Part shown: positions 13,328-56,351 of the stretch, one piece after another | How the letters are laid out: each line of letters begins with the position of its first letter | Numbering within the stretch: the first letter of the stretch is position 1 | Assembly (NCBI GenBank): GCA_964432675.1 | Contig: CAYSOG010000002.1 | Coordinates: 6,975 to 70,974, forward strand | DNA: 64,000 bases | Direction of reading: 5' to 3' | Source: an uncultured Gammaproteobacteria bacterium | GTDB taxonomy: Bacteria; Patescibacteriota; Microgenomatia; CAYSOG01 | Program-made: the position numbers and the translations under genes | Notes under the pieces: generated by a model | Told to the model about the DNA's origin: nothing | Database searches by the model: none | The model's input: only the letters and a program-made list of their open reading frames with translations

Positions 13328-13385
13328 AGAAAAGAATAGTGTCGTGACACTTACATGCTTCGAGCAATTAGGGAGAAGTTCCTCG

Positions 13386-18960: not shown

Positions 18961-19842
18961 TTAGTCAAAAACAAGATAGTCTTTTTGGCCGTTTAAAATA
19001 TTGCGGCTATCCCAATCATGGATCGAGGCAAATAACCCTTGGTAGGTGTATTGAAAACTATTGCCTTGGCGAATGCCAACATCGTTGGTAATAAAGATGC
19101 CGGGAACCATACTGCAGCTTACAGTATCTATACTACGGCATTTTTTAGGGTCAATCACTGCTTTATCATCGTAGCCTTTAATAACCAGCATGTGGTAATT
19201 TGGCCCACCGTTTTTAAAATAGGGGTTTGGGAGGATTTTACCGGCAGCACCAACAATCACCGGGTGACTTTTGGCAATTTCTTGCTTTATTGTAGCGATT
19301 GTTGCGTTTTGGACAACATGACCGTTTAATCCATAATACTGTTTGGCAATATCCGCTAATTGCTGCAAGGTGATACTTAATCCATAGCCATTTTTTGTTT
19401 CAAATGAAATAAGATTTTGAATTTCATTTTCTCCATCATCAAGGTTTGCTGGAACTTTTCCCTGCAAAAAGTAGACTACATTCAAAAGGCTTGCTTCCTC
19501 ACAAGCATCTTCATGCAACGCATCCCAGTTTGCGTGCGGGGCTTGAACTAAGAAAGGAACATTGAGTGTTTTCGCTGCTAATATGGCTGATGACGTCGCG
19601 ACAGAATGTGGCGTCGGTTTTAAAATGGCGGAAGGAACAGATTGTTGGGTAGGGGAGGGGATTGGCGTTGTGCGAACGATAGGTGGTAGCTTCTGTGTCG
19701 CACGCTGAGCTGCCTGTTCTGGTAATACAACTTTCAAAATAACGATAACGTCAAGCAGGGCGATAATAGCAATAATAATTTTACGCATATGTTTGCCCAA
19801 ACGTTTTGGCATACGTATTATCCTACCATACCTAGACAGCAT
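18961..19842 (-). CDS. membrane-anchored putative papain-like (C39-like) cysteine peptidase
   Basis: N-terminal TM, a Pro-rich linker, then a candidate Cys (EDACEEASLLNVVYF) and a downstream His/Asp (NYHMLVIKGYDD). The true start may be an internal Met. Confidence 0.4.
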   Translation of the reverse strand: MLSRYGRIIRMPKRLGKHMRKIIIAIIALLDVIVILKVVLPEQAAQRATQKLPPIVRTTPIPSPTQQSVPSAILKPTPHSVATSSAILAAKTLNVPFLVQAPHANWDALHEDACEEASLLNVVYFLQGKVPANLDDGENEIQNLISFETKNGYGLSITLQQLADIAKQYYGLNGHVVQNATIATIKQEIAKSHPVIVGAAGKILPNPYFKNGGPNYHMLVIKGYDDKAVIDPKKCRSIDTVSCSMVPGIFITNDVGIRQGNSFQYTYQGLFASIHDWDSRNILNGQKDYLVFD

Positions 19843-31957: not shown

Positions 31958-32461
31958 GTGATCCCGCCTTCGCTAATTCCACAGACTTGCGCGATAACAG
32001 CAAAACTTGCTACAATTTTCGCTATGGCTATAGAACGTGCACAACAAATTCCAATTGAAGACATTACAGAACTTGTTCATCTTGCAGGCGGCGAAACTGC
32101 CGGACCAATGGCTGACGAAATCGACCAGATCAACTGTTATGCTGGGCTGGTAGTCGGTGTCGCCTCAATCCAAGACGAGCAATGGCAATCAACGGGATAC
32201 TGGAAAATTACTTTAGATTCTGGCCTAATCATTACAAGCAGCTCATATCGCGCCCAAAACTGCTTATTAGACGATCGTGTTAGGTTTTTCGAGCTGCCTG
32301 AAGATGCTGACTGTTACACGGAATATGAAAAAACAAACCATGTTGGTATTTCTATAACACGACATGGCACTTACGTTGACATCATGCATGTTGCTCGCGA
32401 GCAAATAATATTACCGCAACCACAAACCGCTGACGAAAATACCCGCACGTCACCAGATTAA
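31958..32461 (+). CDS. hypothetical protein
   Basis: 167-aa ORF. The start may be the internal Met (MAIERAQQ). Confidence 0.5.
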   Translation: MIPPSLIPQTCAITAKLATIFAMAIERAQQIPIEDITELVHLAGGETAGPMADEIDQINCYAGLVVGVASIQDEQWQSTGYWKITLDSGLIITSSSYRAQNCLLDDRVRFFELPEDADCYTEYEKTNHVGISITRHGTYVDIMHVAREQIILPQPQTADENTRTSPD

Positions 32462-32464
32462 GGC

Positions 32465-33628
32465 TTGTTTCTTTTAAAAATCCCATTTACAATGAGGGCT
32501 ATGACGCAAGAAGAAAAGCGCGCACTTATCACCCGAAATCTTGACGAAGTTCTAACTCCCGAAGAATTAAACCACCTTTTATCTACAAATACTCCCTTAA
32601 AACATTACATCGGTTTTGAGCTATCCGGACAAATCCACATTGGCCAAGGGCTCGTGACTGCCATGAAGATAAAGGATTTCCTTGACGCCGGCGTTGACTG
32701 CACTATCTACTTAGCCGACTGGTTTAGTTGGATTAATGATAAGCTAACCGGCGACTTAGACATTATCCAAAGCGTTGGGGTTGCATATTTTAAAAATGGG
32801 TTTACAGCCTGTTTGCAAGCCCTAGGCGCTGACCCAACGAAGGTCCACTTCGTTACGAGTACTGAGTTGTACAAAAACAGGTTAGACTATTGGCAAAGTG
32901 TTATTGAAATTTCAAAAAATACTACGTTGGCTCGCATGATGCGGTCGGTTTCGATCATGGGACGCACTGAAGGCGAGGGTATGGACTTTGCCAAGCTTAT
33001 TTATCCGCCAATGCAGGCAGCCGACATCTTTCTTTTACAAGCCAACCTAGCGCATGCCGGTATGGACCAACGGAAAGCCCACGTTATTGCCCGTGACACT
33101 GGTTTACAAATTAAAACGAATAAACTAACTGATGCCAAAGGCGAACAGATCAAACCCGTGGCCTTGCACCATCATCTTCTTTTAGGCCTAACGCCGCCAC
33201 CAAAATGGCCAATGGCCAAGGAAGAATTACAGCAAGCACTTTCAGAAATGAAGATGTCAAAGTCAAAGCCTGGGTCTGCCATTTTTATTACCGATGAGCC
33301 AGAAGAAATCCGCCAGAAACTAACCAAAGCCTTTTGTCCAGAAAAGGAAACTGTATACAATCCTGTGCTAGATTGGACTAAGCATCTTATATTTCCCCTT
33401 CGTAACGGTATCCAGATAAATCGTGACGAAAAATTCGGAGGAAATGTGTCGTATTCGTCCTACCAAGACTTAGAAAAGGATTTCCAAGAAGGCGCACTAC
33501 ACCCAATGGATCTTAAAACTGCAGTCGCCGAAAGTTTAATCGAAACTCTCGCGCCAATACGAGACTACTTTAGTAATGACCCAGCTAAATCAACCTTAGA
33601 CAATCTCAAGAAAATTCTCCAATCCTAA
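32465..33628 (+). CDS. tyrS: tyrosyl-tRNA synthetase of the archaeal/eukaryotic type
   Basis: Class I aaRS with a HIGH-like motif (GQIHIGQG) and KMSKS. It aligns along its length with the Methanocaldococcus jannaschii TyrRS as I recall it: HYIGFELSGQIHIG vs AYIGFEPSGKIHLG; IYPPMQAADI..GMDQRKAHVIARD vs IYPIMQVNDI..GMEQRKIHMLARE; EKFGGNVSYSSYQDLEKDF..ALHPMDLKTAVAESLIETLAPIR vs EKFGGDLTVNSYEELESLF..ELHPMDLKNAVAEELIKILEPIR. The Tyr-specifying Y and D are conserved. The true start is probably an internal Met (MRAMTQ or MTQEEK). Confidence 0.85.
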   Translation: MFLLKIPFTMRAMTQEEKRALITRNLDEVLTPEELNHLLSTNTPLKHYIGFELSGQIHIGQGLVTAMKIKDFLDAGVDCTIYLADWFSWINDKLTGDLDIIQSVGVAYFKNGFTACLQALGADPTKVHFVTSTELYKNRLDYWQSVIEISKNTTLARMMRSVSIMGRTEGEGMDFAKLIYPPMQAADIFLLQANLAHAGMDQRKAHVIARDTGLQIKTNKLTDAKGEQIKPVALHHHLLLGLTPPPKWPMAKEELQQALSEMKMSKSKPGSAIFITDEPEEIRQKLTKAFCPEKETVYNPVLDWTKHLIFPLRNGIQINRDEKFGGNVSYSSYQDLEKDFQEGALHPMDLKTAVAESLIETLAPIRDYFSNDPAKSTLDNLKKILQS

Positions 33629-33640: not shown

Positions 33641-33727
33641 TATTTTTATTATTGTTCGAGTGATTAGCGAGAACTACTGAGATAGAGAAGTATTACATTA
33701 CGTAGTTCTCGCTCCATGTGTACATTG
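33641..33727. repeat. Palindromic repeat copy B downstream of tyrS, carrying a perfect 12-bp inverted repeat
   Basis: AGCGAGAACTAC (33666-33677) and GTAGTTCTCGCT (33702-33713) flank a 24-nt loop. The left arm contains the reverse complement of the copy A core (TTATTGTTCGAGTGATTAGCGAGAACTAC). The right arm resembles copy A in forward orientation (GAGAAGTATTA...GTAGTTCTCGCT...TGTACA). Confidence 0.6.
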
Positions 33728-34012
33728 CGCCCCAACAATAGACGATCCGCACACTCTTTTTATCTCTAGGGTAGAGAAGATTAACTACCAAAAGCAATAT
33801 CGCGCCGTGGTACAATTAATTAATGGCAGCACTGTTCAAACGAAAATACTGGCGTTATTTTTGGATTGGTTTGATTGCTATCGCTTCGCTTACGTTAATA
33901 TTAGGCTCTATTTTGCCGAATTTCCTGGCTTAAATTATTGTAACTTCCTTCGCTTTCTTATATAATTACTTCCCGTAACAACATGTTGGCACTTTAATAA
34001 GGAGTTACTAGA

Positions 34013-34441
34013 TTGCACACGGCAATTGACTGCACTGGTGGTGACCGGAAAAGATTGCGCGATGAAGAACTTATTCGTAGCGTACTTACCAAATTGCCCC
34101 GACGTATGCGCATTATATCATTAACCACGCCGATTGTTCTGCCAAGATGCTTTAACGACGTAAAAATTAATGGCAAATTGCAACGCGTCCCAACGGAAGA
34201 TTTATCTGGCTTTGTCCTGACTGAAGAAGGCCATATTGCAATACATACTGAGCCTGCACTTGGCAGCGCCTGGATTGATATTTTCCATAGCAGCAATACT
34301 TTGCTTCAAGCATGCCTTTCTATTATTACCGATACATTTGTATTTACTTCTCTACAAACTAAACTAATCAGAGTTCGCAGCCTTGATCCAGCTGATATTG
34401 GCGTTAGGATAACTGTTGAGCAAGAAAATACTGAATCATGA
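34013..34441 (+). CDS. S-adenosylmethionine decarboxylase-like (SpeH fold) protein lacking the pyruvoyl-precursor serine
   Basis: Aligns to small archaeal/bacterial AdoMetDC: N-terminal MH...GGD..L.D.E.I, then DLSGFVLTEEGHIAIHTEPALGSAWIDIFHS against the canonical [31 protein letters not shown]. ESH is replaced by EGH. Confidence 0.65.
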   Translation: MHTAIDCTGGDRKRLRDEELIRSVLTKLPRRMRIISLTTPIVLPRCFNDVKINGKLQRVPTEDLSGFVLTEEGHIAIHTEPALGSAWIDIFHSSNTLLQACLSIITDTFVFTSLQTKLIRVRSLDPADIGVRITVEQENTES

Positions 34442-34462
34442 CCAAAAAACAGGGGAAAGGAA

Positions 34463-34888
34463 ATGCATGCTCTTTTCAACGGCTCAGGCGGGAAAGAGGA
34501 ATACTTGGATGACGAAGATCGCGTGAAGAAAGCGCTCATCGCAGTACCTGAAAGTTGTGGCCTACTGGCACTGACAAGACCAAAAGTCTTACGTTATGCA
34601 CCCACGCAATTACTCAAAGAAGTAGACCCTCTACAACCAGTCGTTTGGGATGGTATTTGTGGCTCAATTTTTTTAGTATCGGGCAGATTTTCAATTTACA
34701 CGTTTCCAGCCAAGCAATACTTGTGGGCAGACCTTTTCAGTTTGCTTGACTTTGACACCATGGTAGCATTCGCAACGCTCCATGAGTATTTTCCGAATAC
34801 AAACTTCGATGTCGAAATCAACAAACGCGGACTGCCTTTGTTTGAACAAATGCCTGTAGTCGCACAGCAAACCAGAGAAAGGGTTTAG
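34463..34888 (+). CDS. S-adenosylmethionine decarboxylase-like protein, divergent paralog lacking the catalytic serine
   Basis: MHALFNGSGGKEEYLDDED...GICGSIFLVSGRFSIYTFPAKQYLWADLFS. The ESH position reads SGR. Confidence 0.55.
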   Translation: MHALFNGSGGKEEYLDDEDRVKKALIAVPESCGLLALTRPKVLRYAPTQLLKEVDPLQPVVWDGICGSIFLVSGRFSIYTFPAKQYLWADLFSLLDFDTMVAFATLHEYFPNTNFDVEINKRGLPLFEQMPVVAQQTRERV

Positions 34889-34892
34889 GCAC

Positions 34893-35729
34893 ATGTGTTG
34901 TTCGATGCATCCGGCCAGTTTTAGCGAGACGATCGTCTATGTCGGGGAGCAATTTCATCCAAAATATGGCTTGGTCCATGTTATGGCCTACCAAAACACC
35001 GCGATTAACTACAACGCAGGCCCGAATGCCATGATCTTGCATATACCCGGCCAAGGGATGACGCAAGACAACTTTATTGATACTGGTGACTGTCGGTCAT
35101 TTCTCAAAGACATGGTACAAGCCCTTCAGCCACCGCGCCGCGATATACTGTTGGGCTCACGAAGCATCGCGTTTGCTAGCCTCGCACCAGTACAAGTCTT
35201 CGAACATGACATTTATACCGTTGTGCTTTCTGAAGACGCTTCGCTTATTCCGCAAGCGCTAAGCCGTGTACCCGAAAACAAACGGCCGGCCGCTAACCAG
35301 CCGTTGTTTGACTTCTACGCGCGGGAGTGGCCAAACTGGAGTGTTGCACTTTGCTGTTTTGACAATAAGCAGGCTGCAAAAGCGGCACCACTTATGGTCT
35401 GGTACCATCCGCTTGCAGAAGACACCCTGCATTGGCCATCAATTGACAGCCACACCGGTGAGGTACCAAACTTGCACGGCATGGTTGCGGTCGAACACTG
35501 GATAATCGGCGGATCCCACCGTATGACGGAAGAGATTGGTGTACCAGTACGTTATCGCGGTGGCTGTTCACCTGACGTTACGGCGTTTTTGCCAGATCGC
35601 GTTATCGGCATGAATTACAATTTCCCGATGCAAAACGGCGATTTTGTTATCGACACCGAAAAGCTCGTTCAAGGCAATGCTGGCAGCATTCTTCGCGTAC
35701 CAGCACCAAGTGTTGCAAACATAATTTAA
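34893..35729 (+). CDS. hypothetical protein (278 aa) embedded in the AdoMetDC-like cluster
   Basis: ORF with no recognisable motifs. The start may be an internal Met (MHPASF). Confidence 0.5.
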   Translation: MCCSMHPASFSETIVYVGEQFHPKYGLVHVMAYQNTAINYNAGPNAMILHIPGQGMTQDNFIDTGDCRSFLKDMVQALQPPRRDILLGSRSIAFASLAPVQVFEHDIYTVVLSEDASLIPQALSRVPENKRPAANQPLFDFYAREWPNWSVALCCFDNKQAAKAAPLMVWYHPLAEDTLHWPSIDSHTGEVPNLHGMVAVEHWIIGGSHRMTEEIGVPVRYRGGCSPDVTAFLPDRVIGMNYNFPMQNGDFVIDTEKLVQGNAGSILRVPAPSVANII

Positions 35730-35913
35730 CGTTACTTTAGGTCTCACCTTCATTTATGAGGTGGGACCTTTTTTATTGGATAAGACTGTGAGGACTATTG
35801 CTAAACGCTATTTTAATCGTGTTGGTAAATGCGCTTTCCCTGCGGTACAATACTTCTTGTCCGAAAGCACGTTAAGCTTATAAGTCGTGAGGAAAGAAAG
35901 GACGTAAACCCTG

Positions 35914-36270
35914 ATGCACATGATTTTTGATGGCCACGATGGTAATACCGACAAACTGGCAGATATAGAAATCATACAACAAGCGCTCAACGACTTGCCA
36001 GAGAGCATTGGTACGCAGAAGGTTTCCGAACCATATGCAATCCAATACAATGACTGCACATCTGATATACCTGGCGTTTCCGGATTCATCTCCATTCCTG
36101 ATGGTCATATTTTAATCAATACCTTTCCTGAGAAAGGGTATATCTGGGTTGATATTTTCTCTAGCAATAGCTTTGATGCAAATGTCGCGACAACCGAATT
36201 AATATACGCTTTCGACCTAGCAGAAGTTATATCAAGAGTCTTGGAACGACGGCCTATTCCTTTAGGGTAA
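35914..36270 (+). CDS. S-adenosylmethionine decarboxylase-like protein; third paralog, closest to the canonical enzyme but with Ser replaced by Gly
   Basis: DIPGVSGFISIPDGHILINTFPEKGYIWVDIFSSNSFDANVATTELIYAF aligns with [48 protein letters not shown]. The ES is replaced by DG. Confidence 0.65.
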   Translation: MHMIFDGHDGNTDKLADIEIIQQALNDLPESIGTQKVSEPYAIQYNDCTSDIPGVSGFISIPDGHILINTFPEKGYIWVDIFSSNSFDANVATTELIYAFDLAEVISRVLERRPIPLG

Positions 36271-36329: not shown

Positions 36330-38456
36330 TTGCACACGCAAGGTCCCTTTACTCTTGAATTCTTCCATGATACGCTAGGCGGTATGTTATCCAAAGACAC
36401 ACCAATTGCAGCGCTTGCTGGCATTGGGCCGACGTATGCCACAAAATTACAAAAACTTCATATTTTTACGGTTGGTGATTTGATTGAACATTATCCATTC
36501 CGCTATGAAAATTATGCATCAATAAAATCAATTGCCGAAACCAAAATAGGGGAGGAGGTTACAATAATTGGCACGCTTTGGGAAATTAAGAATGCTTATA
36601 CTCGCAATTACCGCATCAAAACAATTACCAAAGCACTCATCCATGACGGTAGCGGTACCATTGAAGCAGTCTGGTTTAACCAATCTTACCTTACTAAAAA
36701 TCTCCAAGCCGGTATGGAAGTTAGCCTTTCAGGTAAGCTCAAGCAAAACGGCTATAAATTGCAGCTTGTTTCGCCAGCCTACGAAATCTTAAAGTCCAAT
36801 CGCGAGACTGTTAATACCGGCCGCATTGTCCCAATTTATCCAGAAACAGAAGGGGTCACGTCACGCTGGCTAAGGACAAAGATTGCCCAATTGCTTCCAC
36901 AAATTAACCAAGATGTAACTGACTGGCTGCCGCGCCAAATTATCGAAAAAGCAGACCTATTACCGTTAGACGACGCATTGCAAAAAATCCATTTTCCTAA
37001 TGCAAAAGACGATATTATCCAATCACGAAAACGCATTGCCATTGACGAACTTCTAAAAGTCCACCTTACCGCACTAAAGCGCAAACAAGAATGGGAAGGT
37101 AAAAGCCATGGCCATGCATTTGTCATTGACCAAAAAAAAGTCCAGGACTTTATCGCACGTTTACCTTTCACATTAACAAAAGCCCAGTATCGTGTCATAG
37201 ATGAAATATTGGCTGACCTAAAAAATGATACTGCTATGAACCGCTTATTAGAAGGCGATGTCGGTAGCGGCAAAACGGTTGTCGCTGCAGTAGCAATGTA
37301 CATCGCTTTCTTAAATGGTAGACAATCAGCCATTATGGCGCCCACTGCCATACTCGCCCAGCAGCATTTCCAAACGCTTTCTAGTCTCTTAGAACCTCTT
37401 GGGTTAAAAGTCGCCCTTCTTACCGGTGGGAAACAACCAAAAGCTTCTGGTGACCAAAAATTACAAGCTTCAAGTTTCAAGCTTCAAGGAATGGATATTG
37501 TCGTTGGCACGCATGCTTTACTTTCCGAATCAACAAAGTTCAAAAATCTCGGATTTATTGTAATAGACGAGCAACATAAATTTGGTGTCGAACAGCGGGC
37601 ACTACTGCACCTCAAAGGCATAACACCACACGTTTTAACGATGACCGCAACACCAATACCCAGAACGCTTGCCCTAACACTCTATGGGAACCTTGACCTT
37701 TCTGTTTTGGATGAGATGCCAGTTGGCCGAACAAAACCGAAGACGTTTGTGGTGCCTCAGCAAAAACGACAAGATGCATACAATTTCATTGCCAAGGAAA
37801 TTACAGCAAAAAAAGTCCAGGCGTTTATTGTTTGCCCATTAATCGAGCTATCGGAAACGTTTAATACCGCAAAAGCAGCAACTGTAGAATACGAAAAACT
37901 CTCGACGGAAATTTTTCCGCAACTGCAACTTGGCTTACTCCATGGGCGCATGAGCTCCAAGCAAAAAGAAGAAACCATGGCAAAATTTCGAAGCCAAGAA
38001 CTTGATATTTTAGTTGCCACACCATTAGTCGAAGTAGGCGTTGATATTCCACATGCCACCATTATGGTCATAGAGGCAGCTGACCGGTTTGGCCTTGCCC
38101 AATTACACCAACTTCGCGGCAGAGTAGGCCGTAGGGAAGGGCAAGACGCGTTTTGCTTTTTATTTACCGAGCTCATTGGCGAAGAATCAATCAAACGGTT
38201 GCGGTCCATGGAAAAAATCTATAGTGGATTAGAACTAGCCGAAGTCGACCTACAATACCGCGGCGCAGGCAATATCTTTGGGACTGAGCAGCATGGCATT
38301 GCAACATTTAAGGTCGCCAAATTATCAAATCTCAAATTAATTGAGCAAACCAGAAAACTTGCGCAACAAATTTTTACTGACTACTACGAAAAAGGGGACC
38401 AAGAAGTCAAGGATACCGTTGATCGCTTTGACAAACGTTTAATCGAACCAAATTAG
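36330..38456 (+). CDS. recG: ATP-dependent DNA helicase RecG
   Basis: Wedge/OB domain, then helicase motifs (GDVGSGKTVVA, DEQHKFGV, TATPIPRTL, arginine finger QLRGRVGR). The start may be an internal Met (MLSKD). Confidence 0.9.
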   Translation: MHTQGPFTLEFFHDTLGGMLSKDTPIAALAGIGPTYATKLQKLHIFTVGDLIEHYPFRYENYASIKSIAETKIGEEVTIIGTLWEIKNAYTRNYRIKTITKALIHDGSGTIEAVWFNQSYLTKNLQAGMEVSLSGKLKQNGYKLQLVSPAYEILKSNRETVNTGRIVPIYPETEGVTSRWLRTKIAQLLPQINQDVTDWLPRQIIEKADLLPLDDALQKIHFPNAKDDIIQSRKRIAIDELLKVHLTALKRKQEWEGKSHGHAFVIDQKKVQDFIARLPFTLTKAQYRVIDEILADLKNDTAMNRLLEGDVGSGKTVVAAVAMYIAFLNGRQSAIMAPTAILAQQHFQTLSSLLEPLGLKVALLTGGKQPKASGDQKLQASSFKLQGMDIVVGTHALLSESTKFKNLGFIVIDEQHKFGVEQRALLHLKGITPHVLTMTATPIPRTLALTLYGNLDLSVLDEMPVGRTKPKTFVVPQQKRQDAYNFIAKEITAKKVQAFIVCPLIELSETFNTAKAATVEYEKLSTEIFPQLQLGLLHGRMSSKQKEETMAKFRSQELDILVATPLVEVGVDIPHATIMVIEAADRFGLAQLHQLRGRVGRREGQDAFCFLFTELIGEESIKRLRSMEKIYSGLELAEVDLQYRGAGNIFGTEQHGIATFKVAKLSNLKLIEQTRKLAQQIFTDYYEKGDQEVKDTVDRFDKRLIEPN

Positions 38457-47456: not shown

Positions 47457-48275
47457 TTATCGACCCGGTACAGGAGAAGTACCCGGTAGGGTAGAAGGCA
47501 ACACAATTTTAGGACTACCTGTTGGTAAAGGCGATGTCGTCGTGGATGGAGAGGCAGATTGTGTTGCGACAACAAGGCTACCACCATTTTCTATATCAGT
47601 ATACACCGGCATTTGTGAAAGCTTTGTAATAAGCTCGTTACTGCTTTGTGAAATTTGGGGTAGGGGATTAGCATAGCTTGTTCCTAAATCCTTAGCGCTA
47701 GGTAGTTGCATGGTATAAACAGCCAGTGTAACTGCCGAGCTCAATGAATTGCCAGACAAGCCAGTGCTGCTGTTTATCTTAACTACCCCCATAACCCGTC
47801 GGATTTGTGATAGTTTTGCCAGAAAAGCCTGTAAATTCTTAATGTCACCACCAAGGGTTAACTGCACATCAATTTCCGATTGTTGCGCCGAATCTGAAGC
47901 CAGTTTACCTGGTTTTAACTGCATACCGACAACTTGTAAATTATTTTCCTGGCTTAGCCGAAGTAAACCGGCAATTAAGCCTGGCACGTTTTTATCTTCT
48001 GGTAAAGCCCGACGGGTTTCCGTTAAGTCGTTTGTAAGTTTATCATCGTTTAAGTTTGCAAGGGTATCGCGTTTTAGTTTGAGGCTTTCAAGTTCTTTTG
48101 ACTCTTGTACAATAGCCGCCCGGTTTGCCTGCAGCTGGCTGACAACCGCTCTCACCGGGAACAATGTTGCAACAACAATGATAAGTGCCGTAATAATAGG
48201 CAGTAAAATTGCCTGCGATATCGTTCTGCCAGCAACATGGATTTGGGACTGCGAAAATAACGATTGAAATTTCAT
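47457..48275 (-). CDS. pilO: type IV pilus assembly protein PilO-like
   Basis: TM, a coiled coil and a PilO-like periplasmic domain (LLRLSQENNLQVVGMQLKPG), then a Ser/Thr/Pro tail. It is the last gene of the pilM-pilN-pilO block. Confidence 0.65.
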   Translation of the reverse strand: MKFQSLFSQSQIHVAGRTISQAILLPIITALIIVVATLFPVRAVVSQLQANRAAIVQESKELESLKLKRDTLANLNDDKLTNDLTETRRALPEDKNVPGLIAGLLRLSQENNLQVVGMQLKPGKLASDSAQQSEIDVQLTLGGDIKNLQAFLAKLSQIRRVMGVVKINSSTGLSGNSLSSAVTLAVYTMQLPSAKDLGTSYANPLPQISQSSNELITKLSQMPVYTDIENGGSLVVATQSASPSTTTSPLPTGSPKIVLPSTLPGTSPVPGR

Positions 48276-48293
48276 ATATTATCTCTACGTTTC

Positions 48294-48842
48294 TTACTTA
48301 CTGTTATACGTAAAATGCATGGTGAAAGCGTAACTACCACCGTCGTTTCGGTTTAATGATTGCAAGAGAATACCACTAAATACCTGACGGCCAAATTCTT
48401 TGGCAGTTATGTCAGACAAAAATCGATCAAGGGCTGCAATATTAGCAGCTGTACCAGAAATCAGAACATTATTTTGCCCGGAAAGGCCTAGTTCGGTGTA
48501 GGTGACATCGCTGCTTTGCAGGTCAATAAGCCGGCTTACAATTTGGTCATATGGCGGTTTTGCCAATTCAATATTCTGCAACGCGCCAACTTTGCTTGCA
48601 ATTGCCCTAAGATAATATTCACGCTTTGATAGTTGGTCAATATCGTTTTCAACTGGCGTTTTCTCAACACGGATATCATGCAGGGACTTTGCACTTAAGG
48701 TAAACATGACAAAAATAATCAGCAAAATCGCCAGAAAAATTGCTAAAACGAACCCGCTTATAAGGGAAATGGTACGATAACGGGACCTGCCCCCTCCGGC
48801 AACCTCAGCCTCTGGTATTAAGTTAACTTCTTGTAAGGCCAT
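48294..48842 (-). CDS. pilN: type IV pilus assembly protein PilN-like
   Basis: A short cytoplasmic N-terminus, a single TM, then a periplasmic domain. It sits directly downstream of pilM. Confidence 0.65.
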   Translation of the reverse strand: MALQEVNLIPEAEVAGGGRSRYRTISLISGFVLAIFLAILLIIFVMFTLSAKSLHDIRVEKTPVENDIDQLSKREYYLRAIASKVGALQNIELAKPPYDQIVSRLIDLQSSDVTYTELGLSGQNNVLISGTAANIAALDRFLSDITAKEFGRQVFSGILLQSLNRNDGGSYAFTMHFTYNSK

Positions 48843-48932
48843 AAAACAGTTTCCTAACAGATTATTACGCTAACAAATACAAACGATTATTCATCTAGCA
48901 AAAAGTTCATCAAACTTACCTGTCACTTTTAA

Positions 48933-49985
48933 TTAGACTTCTTTCAACGCCAAGCCTGCGGCAACTGCAAAATCGGGTGCAAATTGGTTTAACTTTTGGG
49001 CGAGCTCAGGGTCTGAACCAATAAATACCCAAGGATCACCAATTTGGACTTCAACTCCTAGGCTTTGGGCCAAATAAACAATTAAGCCCGGAAGCTTTGC
49101 TGACCCGCCGCAGAGCATAACTCGTTTTATTGTGTCGGATGGGTTCTTTCGCTGGTAAAACGTTAATGCGCGGTTAATTTCCGAAACAACAACATCAAAT
49201 ATAGGCCGAATTGCAGCCAATATTTTGCCCCCTAATTCGCTTTCTAACAGTCCATAGGTTTTCTTATACTCTTCAGCTTGGTTTAGGTCGAAATTAAGTT
49301 CAGCTGCCAATGCCCGAGACAACGCCTGGCCTCCAGTGGGGATAGATCTGGTGAACGCGATAATGCCCCCTGTTAGAATTGCTAAATCAGTTGTTGAGGC
49401 GCCAATTGAAATAATTAATGTTGTCGGCGCTGCAGCGCTTGACCCAACAATCGACCGGGATACAGCTAATATCTCCGTTTCCATACCAACAGGCTTTAAG
49501 CCTGCCATTTTGGTAATTTTGAGGTATTTTTCAATGAGGTCTTTTGGCACGGCAATTAACAAAATTTCCATTTTACCGCTGTTTAGGGTCGAGCCTTCAC
49601 GCAGCACTTGGTAAACCAGGGAAACTTCATTAATGGGAATAGGGACGTATTCTTCCGCGAGGTAGCGGATTGACTGGCTTAAATCTTTCTTTTCAATCTT
49701 TGGCGCTTCAACAAGGCGCGTAAAGATAAGCGATTCAGGAAAAGCAGTTACAACGTTTGTTGTGGTAACTTTACTTTCTTTTACTAAGCGCTTAACCGCA
49801 TCAGCTAATACTTGCAGGTCAACCGAGGAATCGGAAATGACACCACCTTTTGGCGTTGGCTCGATCCCAAAGGTTACAAGTTCATACGGTTTTTTTGATT
49901 TGTTCACTTCAACTAACCGAAGTGAGTGGGTTCCGATATCTAAGCCAAAGGTTTGGGCAGCCATAATAGTAAAACTAAAAAGCAA
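48933..49985 (-). CDS. pilM: type IV pilus assembly ATPase-like protein PilM (actin-like fold)
   Basis: FGLDIGTHSLRLVEV... matches the FtsA/PilM fold. Confidence 0.8.
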   Translation of the reverse strand: MLFSFTIMAAQTFGLDIGTHSLRLVEVNKSKKPYELVTFGIEPTPKGGVISDSSVDLQVLADAVKRLVKESKVTTTNVVTAFPESLIFTRLVEAPKIEKKDLSQSIRYLAEEYVPIPINEVSLVYQVLREGSTLNSGKMEILLIAVPKDLIEKYLKITKMAGLKPVGMETEILAVSRSIVGSSAAAPTTLIISIGASTTDLAILTGGIIAFTRSIPTGGQALSRALAAELNFDLNQAEEYKKTYGLLESELGGKILAAIRPIFDVVVSEINRALTFYQRKNPSDTIKRVMLCGGSAKLPGLIVYLAQSLGVEVQIGDPWVFIGSDPELAQKLNQFAPDFAVAAGLALKEV

Positions 49986-50078
49986 CGATTAAAATGAAAA
50001 GATGAGACATAATTATGAGTAAAGTTCTGTGTTTTACATTATCAAATTCGCTTATTCCATTTACATTTTGCTATCTAC

Positions 50079-50972
50079 TCAATTCTTCGTAAGTGGTGTT
50101 GTCGCACTACCGTTAAAAAGTACGTAGTCGAATATCGACGGTAAGCCACCAATTGACCGTTCGACCTGGACAACCCGCTTGGTGTCTCCAGAAACCCCTT
50201 CTGAACGAATTGTATACGACTGGACTGGAATTTGCTGGCCGTTTGGCGTCACCATTCGTATTGTCGCGCTATTATACAGCGGTCGGATGCGAATAAGCTT
50301 GCCGCTAGCAGGCAGCGAAATTGTCTGCTTGCTGACAAATTGGTTGAGGCTGTTATCTGTCCCTGCTGTTATAAAACCATTTGAAGCCGCTAAACTCGGA
50401 CAACTGTTTGCATTATAATTCCCGCCGGCTGGTGAGGACCGCGAAACGCCATAATTCGTACCATCGAAGGTAACAATCGATATTTCAAGAGAGGCCGGCA
50501 TCGCCGCAGGCGGCGTACAAGAAGAACCGGCTGGGTTTTCTTGCGTATTGTTCTTTAAGCTCCAGTACACATCTAACGACGTTGCAACCGTACACCCACT
50601 GCAGTGTGATTGGTCGATATCAAGCTGGATCACATCATCTTGGGCAACTGGCTTTGCAGGTTGGTAAATGCCAGTCGTTGAACCCGACTTTGATATAGTA
50701 ATATTCGACTGCGCGCCACCGACAGAAATAGCATTTAAGGAAACACTATTTTGGCCAGAGGGAATTAATGAGGGAATGTCTTGACGCAACGTGCTCTCTA
50801 TACCAGCTTCAGCCGCTTCAAAAGCCCGGCTCGAACGCTCTGTTGTTGACGATTCCTTTACATTTGTTACCGTTCGTGCAATAACCGAAAGGCCTACGGT
50901 AAGTGTTACGACTAAAATTAGCAATAATACGACGAGTGCCTGCCCTTTTTGCAGGTTCTGGTGAGTTAGCAT
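50079..50972 (-). CDS. PilX-like minor pilin / pilus assembly protein
   Basis: PilX_N-like N-terminus QKGQALVVLLLILVVTLTVGLSVIA. The start is set at the internal Met; the track ORF extends to 51032. Confidence 0.5.
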   Translation of the reverse strand: MLTHQNLQKGQALVVLLLILVVTLTVGLSVIARTVTNVKESSTTERSSRAFEAAEAGIESTLRQDIPSLIPSGQNSVSLNAISVGGAQSNITISKSGSTTGIYQPAKPVAQDDVIQLDIDQSHCSGCTVATSLDVYWSLKNNTQENPAGSSCTPPAAMPASLEISIVTFDGTNYGVSRSSPAGGNYNANSCPSLAASNGFITAGTDNSLNQFVSKQTISLPASGKLIRIRPLYNSATIRMVTPNGQQIPVQSYTIRSEGVSGDTKRVVQVERSIGGLPSIFDYVLFNGSATTPLTKN

Positions 50973-51110
50973 CCGCAATGTTGCAATACGTGTAAATATC
51001 GACTTGGGCATAAGAATAAGCCACACAACCATTTCTTAATGTGTGTACATAAAGCTTAGCAAACGCGAAACCGCAAAGTCAACCGGGAAGGATTGCTCAA
51101 AAAGGCTGAT

Positions 51111-51731
51111 TTAATAGGAACGCAGGGAAAAACTTGATAAAAAGGGTAACGATCCGGTATTTTCTTGCCGAGTACTTGCGGCAGTCTGGCTTTTGCTCTG
51201 CTGCAGTGTAAACGACACAATGACAACCGTGGTATTTGTTCCAGCGTTTTGGACGACCTGGAAATATGGTGCTGGCGACACCGCAAGGTCAATTGCGTTT
51301 AAGGCCGCGTTATTGTTAGTTATAGATGTTGCAGTAGCAGGATTGAAGGTAGGGGATTGCAACGCTGCCAATGACTGGTTTGAGTCAACACCAATAAAAC
51401 CATTGGCAGTGTTTGAGGTAACCAATGATATACGCGTATAAAGTGGCTGCGATGTATCAAGCACCTTATTTTGGACTATGATATGGTCAAGGTTTGTACC
51501 AGCGGCTGGAGGATCAACGATAGCCGAAGCATTGCTAACGGTTCGTGATATCCGTTCAAGAGCGGTGTTGCCATTCTCTTGTAGTTGGGTCGAAATAGTG
51601 GCTTTATTAGCGCTCCGTAACACACTAATAAAGACGTTCGTTCCAATAACAACCATAATGCCAGTAATGGCAATCACGACGAGCAGCTCAATTAAAGTGA
51701 ACCCATTTAGTGACCTTTGCCATTTGATCAT
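51111..51731 (-). CDS. type IV pilin-like protein (prepilin N-terminus)
   Basis: MIKWQRSLNG/FTLIELLVVIAITGIMVV. Start set at the Met so the gene abuts the upstream pilin. Confidence 0.7.
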   Translation of the reverse strand: MIKWQRSLNGFTLIELLVVIAITGIMVVIGTNVFISVLRSANKATISTQLQENGNTALERISRTVSNASAIVDPPAAGTNLDHIIVQNKVLDTSQPLYTRISLVTSNTANGFIGVDSNQSLAALQSPTFNPATATSITNNNAALNAIDLAVSPAPYFQVVQNAGTNTTVVIVSFTLQQSKSQTAASTRQENTGSLPFLSSFSLRSY

Positions 51732-51732
51732 A

Positions 51733-52326
51733 TTAGTTTGTCGCCTCAAAATTACTGTAATAGCTTGTGAGCGTTGAACTATGACTGCCGCTCGCGTCCT
51801 GCCAAAAAACATAAACCACAACGGTGGCACATTTTGAGCCGGCAGACGCACCGGCAGCGCTAGGACAAGTTGAAGTTGCCGAATTATCAATCATTATTTT
51901 TCGAATAAATCCATTAGCCAAATTTTCGTTTGGGTCAACTTGGGTTGTAATATTAGTACAAGGTGCAGTATCACCAGAAGCGTTCGGCAGAAGCCAGTCA
52001 GCAGTTGGATTACTCGTAAATAATGACTGATTAATATAGTAACAGGTGCCACCACTTGTTCCTTTGCTGCTAAAAAAGGTAGAAGGGTTAATGTCGCGGT
52101 AGGCCCTCACTGATTCCATCGCTTGCCTGGCATACGCATTGGCAATTGTTTGGTTCTTCGAAAATGTTGCGTTCCGAACGGAATTAATGGATGCCACCGA
52201 TAGTGCTGTTAAAACTATCATCGCAATTGTTAACGCCGCCAACACTTCCAAAAGCCCTTGACCTTTTTGCGACTTAATTATGGAACAGGTATTAGTTTGC
52301 AATTTTTTTAGTAATAGTTTATGCAT
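51733..52326 (-). CDS. type IV minor pilin-like protein
   Basis: KG/QGLLEVLAALTIAMIVL has a Gly cleavage site and Glu at +5. Confidence 0.6.
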   Translation of the reverse strand: MHKLLLKKLQTNTCSIIKSQKGQGLLEVLAALTIAMIVLTALSVASINSVRNATFSKNQTIANAYARQAMESVRAYRDINPSTFFSSKGTSGGTCYYINQSLFTSNPTADWLLPNASGDTAPCTNITTQVDPNENLANGFIRKIMIDNSATSTCPSAAGASAGSKCATVVVYVFWQDASGSHSSTLTSYYSNFEATN

Positions 52327-52347
52327 AATCGTATAATCTTGTATCCA

Positions 52348-53058
52348 CTACTGGTTCGTTAAGACGGCACCGTTCGTTTGGACCGTAATTGAGTACGCAG
52401 GCGTACTACCTTGGGTTGCTGTGACGGTAAGCGATTGTGTAATGGCAATCTTATTTGCACTGGTAAATTGGCGGTTATTATAAAACTCAGCAGTCTGGGT
52501 AACTGGCTTAAATAAAATATAGATTGGTGAAGCATATGCGCCGCCATCTACCGCCAGTGCCAATACAAGAGTAGTTGACGGAAACTGTAACGTCTTACCA
52601 TTACCAACATCAGAAGCGGCACCGACAACAGCGCCACAGCTGCCGCTTAATTGGACAACAGGAGCTGCCCCTGGGGTTATTTTCACATACCAGCCATCAA
52701 AGGCATATTGCGATGGTGAACCAACGGGCGGCGAGGGGTTTTGCGGACATGCCTGTGCGCCATTTCCTGAAATTGCACTATTTTGAGCAACGTGTAATGA
52801 CTGGGCTAAAAGTGTTCCGGATTGCACAAGCTGCTGACTGCGGTTGTAGTTATTGTAGGCTGGAATAGAAAAACCAAGCAGTAAAGAAATAATGGTTATG
52901 ACGACTAATAGTTCAATCAGCGTAAAGCCCAGAGTAGGGGAAAGTAGAAAGCCCTTCGACTCAAGCGCCGGACGAGCACGGGAAGCGGGAAGAACGGAAA
53001 ATACCTTCTCTTTGTGTCCTATGTTTTGTGATTTGCGATTTGTAATTTGCGTTCTCAT
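52348..53058 (-). CDS. type IV pilin-like protein
   Basis: LG/FTLIELLVVITIISLLLG. The leader is unusually long, so the true start is probably an unannotated internal GTG or TTG. Confidence 0.65.
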   Translation of the reverse strand: MRTQITNRKSQNIGHKEKVFSVLPASRARPALESKGFLLSPTLGFTLIELLVVITIISLLLGFSIPAYNNYNRSQQLVQSGTLLAQSLHVAQNSAISGNGAQACPQNPSPPVGSPSQYAFDGWYVKITPGAAPVVQLSGSCGAVVGAASDVGNGKTLQFPSTTLVLALAVDGGAYASPIYILFKPVTQTAEFYNNRQFTSANKIAITQSLTVTATQGSTPAYSITVQTNGAVLTNQ

Positions 53059-53100
53059 TACGTTTTTATAGTAGCCTTCTTAATGAAGTGAAGTCAATTT

Positions 53101-53628
53101 TTAGCAGCCATTGGGCATACTTATTTTCGTCAGTCCTGTCCCTATTTCATAATGGCATGCGTCGTTGCCGCCATCGTTCGCGTTTTGCATTTGGCTTAGC
53201 GAATATTCCATAACGGCATCAAGTTTATACAAATTACCACTCCGATAGTACCGGTATACATACTTACCTGCGTTTAATGGATCAACTGGCAATTTTTCGA
53301 TGTATTTTGATAAGTCAACAGGAATCCAACCAGTACCATTTACTTTTGCTAAAGTTGTTGAGGACGAGGCTTGTGTGCTCGTCCGCAAGCGCATATCAGC
53401 ATCCGGTGGTATGCTATTATCTGCAATATAGCGCTCGAGGGCTGCACTTAAGACTGTTATGTCGGCTATGCGACGTTCGTCCCGGCTTTGCTTATTTAGC
53501 CGATCAGGCCGTATATAGATAAGTACGCCAGTGCTAAGAATCGCAACTAACAGAATAATTGTTAGCAGTTCAATCATCGAAAAGCCTGATATTTTGTATT
53601 GGTGATGGTAGAAGGCAGCTTTAACCAT
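53101..53628 (-). CDS. type IV pilin-like protein
   Basis: G/FSMIELLTIILLVAIL prepilin motif. Confidence 0.65.
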   Translation of the reverse strand: MVKAAFYHHQYKISGFSMIELLTIILLVAILSTGVLIYIRPDRLNKQSRDERRIADITVLSAALERYIADNSIPPDADMRLRTSTQASSSTTLAKVNGTGWIPVDLSKYIEKLPVDPLNAGKYVYRYYRSGNLYKLDAVMEYSLSQMQNANDGGNDACHYEIGTGLTKISMPNGC

Positions 53629-53691
53629 TGATGTAAAACTTTATATTTATGTGGACTTGTATTAAGGCAATATAAATCACAAACTTCGCAC

Positions 53692-54812: not shown

Positions 54813-54819
54813 GCTATTT

Positions 54820-55710: not shown

Positions 55711-55820
55711 AAAATTTCCGAAGGTTGGTATTTTGCCAATATAATAGACGACATACAAGCGGGTAGGACCTGTTTCCATTCCTTGGCCCTAGACCCGCCT
55801 GAATGTTGTTCTCGTTATAA

Positions 55821-56324: not shown

Positions 56325-56351
56325 CTCCTTTCAGTTAAATAACAATATTTT

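What the first reader, a model, noticed from the sequence alone, without database searches (positions are those of the whole stretch)
34013..36270. Cluster of three AdoMetDC-fold paralogs that all carry Gly instead of the pyruvoyl-forming Ser, with an unknown 278-aa gene
- Genes 34013, 34463 and 35914 each align to the small S-adenosylmethionine decarboxylase proenzyme (SpeH).
- All three have the conserved N-terminal His and the VSGxxxISESHLxIHTWPE core.
- In all three, the ESH serine that self-cleaves to generate the pyruvoyl cofactor is replaced by glycine (EGH, SGR, DGH).
- Without that Ser they cannot autoprocess into a pyruvoyl enzyme.
- Three tandem, mutually divergent copies look like a preserved non-catalytic or differently catalytic family.
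- They do not look like decaying pseudogenes.
- An uncharacterised 278-aa gene (34893..35729) is embedded with them, directly upstream of recG.
- A palindromic repeat at 33.64-33.73 kb (copy B) lies about 290 nt upstream of the cluster.
- This is the best candidate in the window for an undescribed system.
Basis: partly seen in the sequence, partly recalled or inferred. Interest (0 to 1): 0.7.

Follow-up and report, generated by a model that had tools for sequence, protein, structure and literature searches.

The report
Dead AdoMetDC paralogs plus P35-like gene
Three neighbouring genes keep the fold of the polyamine enzyme S-adenosylmethionine decarboxylase but have lost the residues it needs to work, and the unknown gene among them belongs to a widespread, unnamed bacterial and phage family whose predicted structure resembles the baculovirus caspase inhibitor P35, including its key N-terminal cysteine.

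Summary
ORFs 34013-34441, 34463-34888 and 35914-36270 all pass the Pfam AdoMet_dc threshold. Each has Gly at the column of the pyruvoyl-forming Ser (T. maritima S63). All three also lack the catalytic Cys83, and two lack His68, yet each keeps 17-20 of the 27 most conserved family positions. They are non-pyruvoyl pseudoenzymes, not decaying pseudogenes and not decarboxylases. They have no close relatives among 1.84 billion representative proteins. Loss of the Ser is rare (5 of the 147 nearest relatives) but has happened repeatedly.

The idea of a four-gene system is not supported: none of about 90 loci holding a 278-aa homolog has an AdoMetDC-like neighbour. In this genome, paralog 1, paralog 2 and the P35-like gene do form one tight operon.

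The parts
33938..33966 (+). Promoter-like site (TTGTAA-17-TATAAT, 10/12) upstream of paralog 1
   Evidence: This is a consensus match only; the number of such sites in the region is not above the shuffled expectation.
34013..34441 (+). AdoMetDC-fold paralog 1 (142 aa, P0082). The catalytic triad S63/H68/C83 reads G/H/S. The Gly73 codon is at 34229-34231.
   Evidence: Pfam PF02675 43.8 bits; alignment to 2iii/1tlu; triad table; 18 of 27 conserved family positions kept.
34463..34888 (+). AdoMetDC-fold paralog 2 (141 aa, P0083). The triad reads G/Y/L and H64 is replaced by R. The Gly74 codon is at 34682-34684. It starts 21 nt after paralog 1.
   Evidence: Pfam 37.8 bits; AF2 model pLDDT 89.4; Foldseek to T. 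maritima AdoMetDC 1vr7, E 1.9e-7, TM 0.75, rmsd 2.7; triad.
34893..35729 (+). P35-fold protein (278 aa, P0002). The start codon lies 4 nt after the stop of paralog 2. The Cys2 codon is at 34896-34898.
35136..35183 (+). Codons for residues 82-97 of the P35-fold protein: the putative reactive-site (bait) loop
   Evidence: The only segment with pLDDT < 50. Hypervariable, 14-21 aa, framed by a conserved helix and the VQVFEHD strand. Lineage-specific motifs. Lies opposite P35 DQMD87 in a collinear hhalign alignment that is not significant.
35739..35779 (+). Intrinsic terminator-like hairpin (12-bp stem, 6 GC pairs) followed by a T-run (TTTTTATT), 10 nt after the stop of the P35-like gene
   Evidence: sequence.
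35822..35851 (+). Promoter-like site (TTGGTA-18-TACAAT) upstream of paralog 3
   Evidence: consensus match only.
35914..36270 (+). AdoMetDC-fold paralog 3 (118 aa, P0001; called protein 4 in my working). The triad reads G/N/S. The Gly64 codon is at 36103-36105. It ends 59 nt before recG.
   Evidence: Pfam 62.1 bits; alignment to 1tlu; triad; 20 of 27 conserved positions kept; closest relative is the Ser-bearing P0084 at 42% identity.

Best explanation
The region is a lineage-specific insert between tyrS and recG in a small housekeeping chromosome, probably a CPR/Patescibacteria-type MAG. It holds two kinds of gene.

(1) Three stand-alone class-1b AdoMetDC/SpeD-fold paralogs that are pseudoenzymes. 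Shown: they keep the half-sandwich scaffold but lack Ser63 (now Gly) and Cys83, and two of the three lack His68. Inferred from established pyruvoyl-enzyme chemistry: without those residues they cannot self-cleave, cannot form a pyruvoyl group and cannot decarboxylase AdoMet, arginine or ornithine by the known mechanism. Also inferred: they most likely still pair through the beta-sheet face, as class-1b subunits do. They would then act as non-catalytic scaffold or regulatory subunits, either with each other (paralogs 1 and 2 are nearly contiguous) or with a Ser-bearing SpeD encoded elsewhere in the genome. The precedents are the dead half of bacterial SpeD-SpeD fusions, the scaffolding half of eukaryotic AdoMetDC and the trypanosome prozyme.

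(2) A 278-aa protein that belongs to a large, unnamed prokaryotic and phage family with the fold of baculovirus P35. Shown: the fold match, the universal N-terminal Met-Cys, and a hypervariable exposed loop at the place of P35's reactive-site loop. Inferred: it is a suicide-substrate ('bait loop') inhibitor. A cysteine protease would cut the loop and become trapped as a thioester, with the freed N-terminal Cys thiol stabilising the adduct.

Paralog 1, paralog 2 and the P35-like gene form one transcription unit here, and paralog 3 has its own promoter-like site. Because this linkage occurs nowhere else, I read the arrangement as a local accretion of accessory genes rather than a conserved four-gene machine.
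For: Trio:
- Pfam AdoMet_dc is above threshold for all three, and the fold of the weakest one is confirmed.
- The S63/H68/C83 triad, defined as essential in PMC10407285 section 7, reads SHC in 134 of 151 aligned sequences but GNS, GHS and GYL in the trio.
- Of the 27 positions conserved in at least 80% of relatives, the trio keeps 20, 18 and 17. The only ones lost in all three are S63, C83 and two hydrophobic sites.
- The ORFs are intact despite only 26-33% mutual identity.
- Gly63 and Trp78 are shared derived characters, and paralogs 3 and 2 are sisters in an NJ tree.

Precedents for a maintained Ser-less form:
- Seven two-domain proteins have a 'GGH', Cys-less N-half fused to a canonical 'AESH...FSC' C-half.
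- Ala and Gly variants in Margulisiibacteriota-type genomes are syntenic orthologs upstream of an arginase-family gene.
- Fusions with a degraded domain are published, as is the prozyme.
- The paralog 2 model also weakly hits the spermine synthase N-domain and the prozyme.

P35-like protein:
- AF2 pLDDT is 90.3.
- All eight significant BFVD hits are P35/P49 or unnamed giant-virus proteins.
- Met-Cys is present in 40 of 42 family members and in all 85 genomic loci, including 5 viral contigs.
- The loop at 82-97 is disordered, hypervariable and carries lineage-specific motifs.
- The roles of P35 C2 and D87 come from PMC7863939.

Operon anatomy.
Against: - No partner for the dead paralogs was found. 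The 64-kb window has no Ser-bearing SpeD, spermidine synthase or agmatinase, and the rest of the genome could not be read.
- Oligomerisation was not modelled, because the tool predicts monomers only.
- With no orthologs available, purifying selection could not be measured. The only other copy, L010, is 100% identical in DNA.
- For the P35-like protein, sequence-level homology is not significant: hhalign E 0.16, no hit to the Pfam P35 model and no PDB sequence hit.
- No residue-level structural superposition or model coordinates were available.
- There is no conserved Asp at a P1-like position.
- The family has many invariant Cys, His, Asp and Asn residues, which could equally mark an enzyme active site or a metal site.
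- No protease is a conserved neighbour.
Confidence: 0.55

Rival explanations
1. The four genes form one dedicated, undescribed system. The dead AdoMetDC-fold proteins and the 278-aa protein would work together, for example as a complex that senses or sequesters AdoMet or polyamines, coupled to protease control.
For: In this genome, paralog 1, paralog 2 and the 278-aa gene are separated by only 21 and 4 nt. They share one promoter-like site and one strong terminator. Both gene types also occur in phages: PHROG 3125 for AdoMetDC and viral contigs for the 278-aa family.
Against: None of the ~90 loci with a 278-aa homolog has an AdoMetDC-like ORF within about 6 kb, and that family has no conserved neighbour. 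The trio exists only in this organism. There are no PADLOC hits. Other Ser-less AdoMetDC homologs sit next to arginase-family genes, not P35-like genes.
Confidence: 0.12
2. The three AdoMetDC-like ORFs are relics: former decarboxylase genes that lost function and are drifting, with no present role.
For: The catalytic residues are gone. There are no orthologs anywhere, so conservation cannot be shown. Paralogs 1 and 2 are strongly diverged, with best hits at about 33% identity.
Against: Three ORFs of 118-142 codons remain open in a 43-46% GC genome. All three match the Pfam model end to end. Structural positions (H7, L20, L30, P34, P45, G56, T69, P71, D79, F81, and a conserved Phe, Arg and Gly nearer the C-terminus) are retained in all three, while the losses concentrate on catalytic sites. 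The genes have Shine-Dalgarno-like sequences and tight operon spacing. The paralog 2 model folds with pLDDT 89. Small CPR-type genomes rarely keep dead weight (general knowledge).
Confidence: 0.1
3. The paralogs are differently catalytic: they use the AdoMetDC scaffold for a new, pyruvoyl-independent reaction or for tight ligand binding, such as acting as an AdoMet or polyamine sponge.
For: The scaffold and the N-terminal His are conserved. Paralog 3 keeps Glu72 and paralog 1 keeps His68. The family is known to neofunctionalise readily, from AdoMetDC to ADC and ODC (PMC10407285).
Against: All known activities of this fold need the pyruvoyl group (PMC10407285 section 7). The three paralogs do not share a new conserved polar constellation. 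Their only shared derived residues are Gly63 and Trp78, and the remaining pocket residues differ among them.
Confidence: 0.13
4. The 278-aa protein is not an inhibitor but an enzyme or binding protein that merely shares a beta-sandwich fold with P35. One option is an N-terminal-cysteine (Ntn-type) hydrolase or transferase, or a Cys/His metal-binding protein.
For: The invariant N-terminal Cys is also the hallmark of Ntn amidohydrolases (general knowledge). There are many invariant polar residues: N35, N45, C155, D185, H187, H202, N248 and D250, plus the nearly invariant C2, H50 and C154. The gene occurs as a single-copy chromosomal gene among housekeeping genes in hundreds of actinomycetes. There is no significant sequence similarity to P35.
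Confidence: 0.3

Closest known systems
Class 1b S-adenosylmethionine decarboxylase (SpeD/SpeH; T. maritima TM0655, PDB 1tlu/1vr7; Pfam PF02675)
   Same: Same fold and length class. The Pfam match is above threshold, and the structural match has TM 0.75 and rmsd 2.7 A. The N-terminal His, the G56, T69, P71, D79 and F81 core, and the conserved C-terminal Arg and Gly are all kept.
   Different: Ser63 is replaced by Gly in all three and Cys83 by Ser, Ser and Leu. His68 is replaced by Asn or Tyr in two. Scores are far below the NCBIfam equivalog cut-off. No speE lies nearby. The proteins therefore cannot be processed pyruvoyl enzymes.
Degraded SpeD domain of bacterial SpeD-SpeD fusion proteins (Victivallis vadensis and other Lentisphaerota; Li et al. 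2023, PMC10407285), and the N-dead fusions found here (P0086, P0101, P0113, P0124, P0203, P0212, P0221)
   Same: [quoted passage not shown] In the seven fusions found here, the dead half has the same Ser-to-Gly change and the same loss of Cys83.
   Different: Those dead modules are covalently fused to an active half. The window's three are separate genes, all three are dead, and they are not specifically related to the fused N-halves, which rank 83rd to 149th of about 155 by BLAST score.
Trypanosomatid AdoMetDC prozyme (PDB 5tvm; PMC5201418)
   Same: A stand-alone paralog of AdoMetDC that lacks key residues, is not processed, and works only by pairing with another subunit. It gives a weak structural hit to the paralog 2 model.
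   Different: Prozyme is a eukaryotic class-2 (double-domain) protein and is reported only in trypanosomatids. Here the proteins are single class-1b halves in a bacterium, no active partner has been identified, and no activation has been shown.
Baculovirus P35 / P49 caspase inhibitors (MEROPS I50; PDB 1p35, 1i4e, 2fun)
   Same: The 278-aa protein shares several features with P35: a similar size (278 against 299 aa), the best and only strong fold match, the N-terminal Met-Cys, and a helix followed by an exposed flexible loop near residues 80-97, where P35 has DQMD87. The functions of P35 C2 and D87 are taken from PMC7863939.
   Different: There is no significant sequence similarity and no conserved Asp-x-x-Asp site. 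The loop motifs are lineage-specific: [IM][AD]WM[GSD] in Streptomyces and its relatives, and basic R/K-G/S sites in CPR and phage members. The hosts are bacteria and phages rather than insect viruses. The target protease is unknown and inhibition is untested.

Membership tests
AdoMetDC/SpeD class 1b (pyruvoyl decarboxylase) | AdoMet_dc fold and Pfam PF02675 match | tested here: met
   43.8, 37.8 and 62.1 bits against a cut-off of 25. Paralog 2 model against 1vr7: E 1.9e-7, TM 0.75.
AdoMetDC/SpeD class 1b (pyruvoyl decarboxylase) | Serine at the self-cleavage site (T. maritima S63) that becomes the pyruvoyl group | tested here: not met
   Gly in all three. The column is Ser in 142 of 147 relatives.
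AdoMetDC/SpeD class 1b (pyruvoyl decarboxylase) | His68 and Cys83, required for processing and catalysis (PMC10407285 section 7) | tested here: not met
   H68 reads N, H and Y, and C83 reads S, S and L, for paralogs 3, 1 and 2.
AdoMetDC/SpeD class 1b (pyruvoyl decarboxylase) | Score at or above the NCBIfam equivalog cut-off (TIGR03330, 75.65 bits) | tested here: not met
   35.3, 20.2 and 42.9 bits.
AdoMetDC/SpeD class 1b (pyruvoyl decarboxylase) | Genomic partnership with spermidine synthase (speE) or another polyamine gene | tested here: inconclusive
   None found in the 64-kb window. The rest of the genome was not available.
Neofunctionalised SpeD homologs (SpeDA arginine and SpeDC ornithine decarboxylases) | S63, H68 and C83 retained, with changed substrate-binding residues | tested here: not met
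   The triad is absent. The definition is from PMC10407285.
Prozyme-type pseudoenzyme (dead paralog that activates an active AdoMetDC) | A paralog of AdoMetDC that lacks processing residues and is not processed | tested here: met
   Sequence level only. Whether the proteins are processed was not tested experimentally.
Prozyme-type pseudoenzyme (dead paralog that activates an active AdoMetDC) | Forms a heteromer with a catalytically competent AdoMetDC and activates it | not testable with these tools
   No Ser-bearing paralog lies in the window. Multimer prediction and biochemistry were unavailable.
SpeD-SpeD fusion with one degraded domain | Two SpeD-homologous domains in one polypeptide | tested here: not met
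   The three genes are separate ORFs with their own stop and start codons. The fused examples are 251-274 aa.
Baculovirus P35 family (MEROPS I50, Pfam P35) | P35 fold | tested here: met
Baculovirus P35 family (MEROPS I50, Pfam P35) | N-terminal Cys2, needed to trap the thioester | tested here: met
   Met-Cys or Val(GTG)-Cys in 85 of 85 loci and 40 of 42 aligned proteins.
Baculovirus P35 family (MEROPS I50, Pfam P35) | Solvent-exposed reactive-site loop after the first helix, near residue 87 | tested here: inconclusive
   Helix 70-78 is followed by the only low-confidence segment, 82-97, which is hypervariable. A collinear alignment places it opposite DQMD87, but that alignment is not significant. 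No 3D superposition was available.
Baculovirus P35 family (MEROPS I50, Pfam P35) | Caspase recognition site with Asp at P1 (DQMD) | tested here: not met
   There is no conserved Asp. The loop motifs differ by lineage.
Baculovirus P35 family (MEROPS I50, Pfam P35) | Detectable sequence homology to P35 | tested here: not met
   No Pfam hit for any of 42 members at E <= 5; hhalign E 0.16; no PDB hit with the family profile.
Baculovirus P35 family (MEROPS I50, Pfam P35) | Covalent, cleavage-dependent inhibition of a cysteine protease | not testable with these tools
   This needs biochemistry.

The most novel reading that the evidence does not exclude
The 278-aa protein represents a large prokaryotic and phage branch of the P35 superfamily that works as P35 does. 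In this reading it is a suicide-substrate inhibitor whose lineage-specific bait loop is cut by a bacterial cysteine protease (for example a caspase-like, clan CD enzyme of a cell-death or defence pathway), with the enzyme then trapped through the conserved N-terminal Cys. That would give the long-orphan baculovirus P35 family a cellular and phage origin and reveal a new class of bacterial protease regulators or phage counter-defence proteins. In this genome it would be co-expressed with dead AdoMetDC-fold subunits that form a non-catalytic heteromer, a bacterial stand-alone counterpart of the prozyme.
Probability: 0.3. Interest if true: 0.85.

Novelty: new variant of a known kind. Interest (0 to 1): 0.62.

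Why it matters
**Annotation.** Genes like these are named 'S-adenosylmethionine decarboxylase' by annotation pipelines. The Ser-less Margulisiibacteriota homolog P0211 carries that name. Metabolic reconstructions that infer polyamine synthesis from such names would be wrong. Checking the S63/H68/C83 triad catches the error.

**Pseudoenzyme biology.** Dead AdoMetDC modules are known as fused domains in bacteria and as the trypanosome prozyme. Three stand-alone dead class-1b halves, together with the N-dead fusions and the arginase-linked Ser-less clade seen here, suggest that loss of the pyruvoyl site is a recurrent evolutionary route. These proteins offer simple models for how eukaryotic AdoMetDC acquired its scaffolding half.

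**The P35-like family.** In the literature I searched, P35 is discussed only as a viral (baculovirus) caspase inhibitor. A P35-fold family with the same N-terminal Cys matched 205 stretches in GTDB species genomes (mostly Actinomycetota, some CPR) and occurs on large phage contigs. That makes the origin and generality of the P35 mechanism directly testable in tractable organisms such as Streptomyces.

Tried and rejected
- **Word-indexed homolog searches.** Searches with paralog 3 alone and with the three-sequence alignment returned only the window's own proteins. The exhaustive HMMER search was needed.
- **Source organism.** An exact look-up of paralog 3 found nothing, and the cluster look-up gave no names. 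The organism is therefore inferred only from gene content and from the best relative of the 278-aa protein, a Levyibacteriota MAG at 50% identity.
- **Co-occurrence.** An HMM scan of the six-frame ORFs of all 94 loci held at that point, about 90 of which carry a 278-aa homolog, found no AdoMetDC-like neighbour of any 278-aa homolog. Neighbour clustering over 84 loci found no conserved partner; the first attempt timed out. The CPR contexts L015 and L080 were uninformative.
- **L006 upstream gene.** The 155-aa gene upstream of the closest 278-aa relative did not align convincingly to the trio and was not recovered by the HMM.
- **Single loss versus several.** BLAST ranks each paralog closer to canonical Ser-bearing members than to its siblings. 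An NJ tree pairs paralogs 3 and 2 and puts paralog 1 in the same 28-member clade. I treat a single loss before duplication as likely but unproven.
- **Descent from fused dead N-halves.** Rejected.
- **Selection test with the second copy (L010).** It is 100% identical in DNA, so it is uninformative.
- **Sequence-level link to P35.** The Pfam scan of all members, the PDB profile search and hhalign were all non-significant.
- **3D clustering of invariant residues.** Model coordinates are not exposed.
- **Defence and phage libraries.** PADLOC gave nothing. PHROGs gave only the generic AdoMetDC family for the trio.
- **Literature.** Four searches found no description of prokaryotic P35-like proteins or of stand-alone bacterial dead SpeD paralogs. 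The library does not cover subscription journals.


Full report
**1. What is there**

Four + strand ORFs lie between a TyrRS gene (32465-33628) and recG (36330-38456). They are 34013-34441 (142 aa, paralog 1), 34463-34888 (141 aa, paralog 2), 34893-35729 (278 aa) and 35914-36270 (118 aa, paralog 3). Gaps are 21 nt between paralogs 1 and 2 and 4 nt between paralog 2 and the 278-aa gene. A 12-bp-stem hairpin with a T-run at 35739-35779 follows the 278-aa gene. Promoter-like sites lie at 33938-33966 and 35822-35851. The anatomy therefore suggests two transcription units: paralog 1, paralog 2 and the 278-aa gene in one, and paralog 3 in the other.

The surrounding 64 kb is ordinary chromosome: several aminoacyl-tRNA synthetases, RNase III, TrmD, PBP1, YidD and a type IV pilus cluster. 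It holds no polyamine gene and no caspase-like protease. GC is 46% in the 34-36 kb window against roughly 41-47% elsewhere.

**2. The three AdoMetDC-like genes**

All three exceed the Pfam AdoMet_dc gathering score but fall far below the NCBIfam equivalog cut-off. Ungapped alignments to T. maritima and Aquifex AdoMetDC put the Gly of paralogs 1 and 3 exactly on Ser63, the residue that becomes the pyruvoyl group. Paralog 2 had no PDB sequence hit. It aligns in the same column in a 151-sequence MAFFT alignment.

Li et al. [quoted passage not shown] That triad reads SHC in 134 of 151 aligned sequences. In the trio it reads GHS (paralog 1), GYL (paralog 2) and GNS (paralog 3).

Of the 27 positions conserved in at least 80% of the 147 nearest relatives, the trio keeps 18, 17 and 20. 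The only positions lost in all three are S63, C83 and two hydrophobic sites. Selective loss of catalytic residues with a retained scaffold, in intact ORFs that are only 26-33% identical to each other, marks pseudoenzymes rather than pseudogenes. By established pyruvoyl chemistry they cannot be decarboxylases of the known kind.

**3. How unusual is this**

An exhaustive HMMER search of 1.84 billion representatives gave 1171 hits at E <= 0.001. None is close: the best non-self hit scores 95 bits against 185-231 for self. The word-indexed searches found only the proteins themselves. An independent Logan contig is 100% identical in DNA.

Among the 147 best relatives, five lack the Ser: Gly in P0142, P0211 and P0218, Ala in P0114 and Thr in P0226. 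Four of the five also lack C83 (P0218 keeps it). P0114 and P0211 are syntenic orthologs directly upstream of an arginase-family gene. P0211 is annotated 'S-adenosylmethionine decarboxylase' in a Margulisiibacteriota MAG.

Seven two-domain proteins of 251-274 aa carry an N-terminal half reading 'GGH' with no Cys83, fused to a canonical 'AESH...FSC' half. The window trio is not specifically related to those halves. Ser-to-Gly loss has therefore happened several times.

Published precedents are the SpeD-SpeD fusions with a degraded, unprocessed C-terminal domain (PMC10407285) and the trypanosome prozyme, described as found only in trypanosomatids (PMC5201418). I found no description of stand-alone dead class-1b paralogs in bacteria.

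Within the trio, Gly63 and Trp78 are shared derived characters, and an NJ tree pairs paralogs 3 and 2. BLAST, however, ranks each paralog nearer to canonical members than to its siblings. One loss followed by duplication is likely but not proven.

**4. The 278-aa gene**

It has 80 homologs at 33-64% identity and no Pfam, NCBIfam, PHROG or PADLOC match. A 42-sequence alignment shows a nearly invariant Met1-Cys2. The AF2 model is confident, with pLDDT 90.3 and pTM 0.87, and the only segment below pLDDT 50 is residues 82-97, just after helix 70-78.

P35 works through a flexible reactive loop (DQMD87). The cleaved Asp87 stays thioester-linked to the caspase cysteine, and the thiol of the N-terminal Cys2 is crucial for preventing hydrolysis (PMC7863939). 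The bacterial family shares these hallmarks:
- All 85 genomic loci start Met-Cys or GTG-Cys, including five IMG/VR contigs of 55-393 kb.
- The loop is 14-21 residues long and hypervariable, between a conserved helix and the VQVFEHD strand.
- The loop carries lineage-specific motifs: [IM][AD]WM[GSD] in Streptomyces and its relatives, P(P/R)TR(G/T/S) at the start of the loop in Actinoallomurus and some Actinomadura, and basic R/K-G/S sites in CPR and phage members.

At the sequence level the link is not significant. hhalign against the verified P35 sequence gives E 0.16, although the alignment is collinear from Met-Cys to Met-Cys and places the loop opposite DQMD. Inhibitor function is therefore an inference from fold plus two mechanistic hallmarks. 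An enzymatic role for the N-terminal Cys and the many invariant Cys, His and Asp residues remains a serious rival.

**5. Is it one system?**

The 278-aa family matched 205 stretches in GTDB species genomes, mostly Actinomycetota plus Levyibacteriota, Saccharibacteria and Parcubacteria MAGs. It also occurs in phage-like blocks and on viral contigs.

None of the ~90 loci with a homolog has an AdoMetDC-like ORF within about 6 kb. No neighbour is shared by more than about 13 of 84 loci. The link to the dead AdoMetDC genes is therefore unique to this genome. Co-transcription here is plausible, but a conserved four-gene machine is not supported.

The palindrome at 33666-33713 shares a roughly 29-nt arm with a copy near 13.4 kb and sits just after tyrS. 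It is a dispersed intergenic repeat, perhaps a terminator.

**6. Verdict**

The paralogs are maintained and non-catalytic. They do not form a conserved four-gene system.
- The trio is a new variant of a known kind: dead AdoMetDC modules, but stand-alone and in triplicate.
- The more consequential result is that the 'unknown' gene is a member of a large, unnamed prokaryotic and phage family with the P35 fold and P35's N-terminal cysteine.

Confidence is high that the trio are not pyruvoyl enzymes. It is moderate that they act as scaffold or regulatory subunits, and moderate to low that the 278-aa protein is a suicide protease inhibitor.

Noticed in passing
P0086, P0101, P0113, P0124, P0203, P0212, P0221 (proteins; no loci fetched): Seven two-domain AdoMetDC homologs of 251-274 aa. 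Each has an N-terminal half reading 'GGH' (no Ser63, no Cys83) fused to a canonical 'AESH...FSC' C-terminal half. This is the reverse order to the published V. vadensis type, where the C-terminal domain is the degraded one. One cluster has 11 members, on contigs up to 70 kb.
   Followed up: partly
L012 5001-6229, L013 107-1335, L096 5001-6217: Ser-less AdoMetDC homologs (P0211 with Gly, P0114 with Ala; both also lack Cys83) are syntenic orthologs. Each overlaps or abuts an arginase-family gene in the same TrpA / HD / QueF / OMP-decarboxylase neighbourhood. P0211 is annotated 'S-adenosylmethionine decarboxylase' in Candidatus Margulisiibacteriota. In the NJ tree they group with P0226 (Thr) and with C83-less members.
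   Followed up: partly
window 33666-33713 and about 13370-13440: A dispersed palindromic intergenic repeat. Copy B has a perfect 12-bp stem with a 24-nt loop just downstream of tyrS. It shares the arm TTATTGTTCGAGTGATTAGCGAGAACTAC with a copy near 13.4 kb. Five matches to the 13-mer were found, against 0.7 expected.
   Followed up: partly
L097-L101 (IMG/VR contigs of 55-393 kb); BFVD hits A0A6N1NI77 (Tupanvirus) and A0A8F8PN05 (Clandestinovirus): The P35-fold family occurs on large phage-like contigs, always with a Met-Cys start. Its closest viral structural matches are unnamed giant-virus proteins (E 3.5e-13 and 1.8e-10), which score better than the baculovirus P35 proteins themselves.
   Followed up: partly
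L016-L094 (Streptomyces, Kitasatospora, Nocardiopsis and related loci), residues about 85-100 of the homolog: Within the otherwise variable loop, most Streptomyces-type members share the motif [IM][AD]WM[GSD]. A few read DWMD, which resembles P35's DQMD. Actinoallomurus and some Actinomadura members instead share a P(P/R)TR(G/T/S) start to the loop, and the Actinoallomurus subgroup continues ...PEGC..AGGPPP.
   Followed up: partly
L003 3765-5834 and L004 355-2424 (Streptomyces): In some Streptomyces genomes the P35-fold gene lies 10 nt downstream of a 408-aa DUF1266 gene. The pairing is not general: it is seen in about 7 of 84 loci.
   Followed up: partly
window 47457-61795 (- strand): A type IV pilus gene cluster: PilO, PilM and PilX-like genes, several prepilins with the N-methylation motif, the prepilin peptidase, PilC (T2SSF) and two T2SSE ATPases.
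   Followed up: no
window 18961-19842 (-): A Peptidase_C39_2 (papain-like cysteine peptidase) gene. It is the only cysteine protease recognised in the window and lies 15 kb from the cluster, with no evidence of any link to the P35-like gene.
   Followed up: no
window 31958-32461 (+): A 167-aa ORF immediately upstream of tyrS (3-nt gap) with no Pfam, PHROG or PADLOC match.
   Followed up: no
window 1612-3041 (+): Two adjacent paralogous genes of about 235 aa, each with an N-terminal double zinc ribbon (DZR) domain.
   Followed up: no
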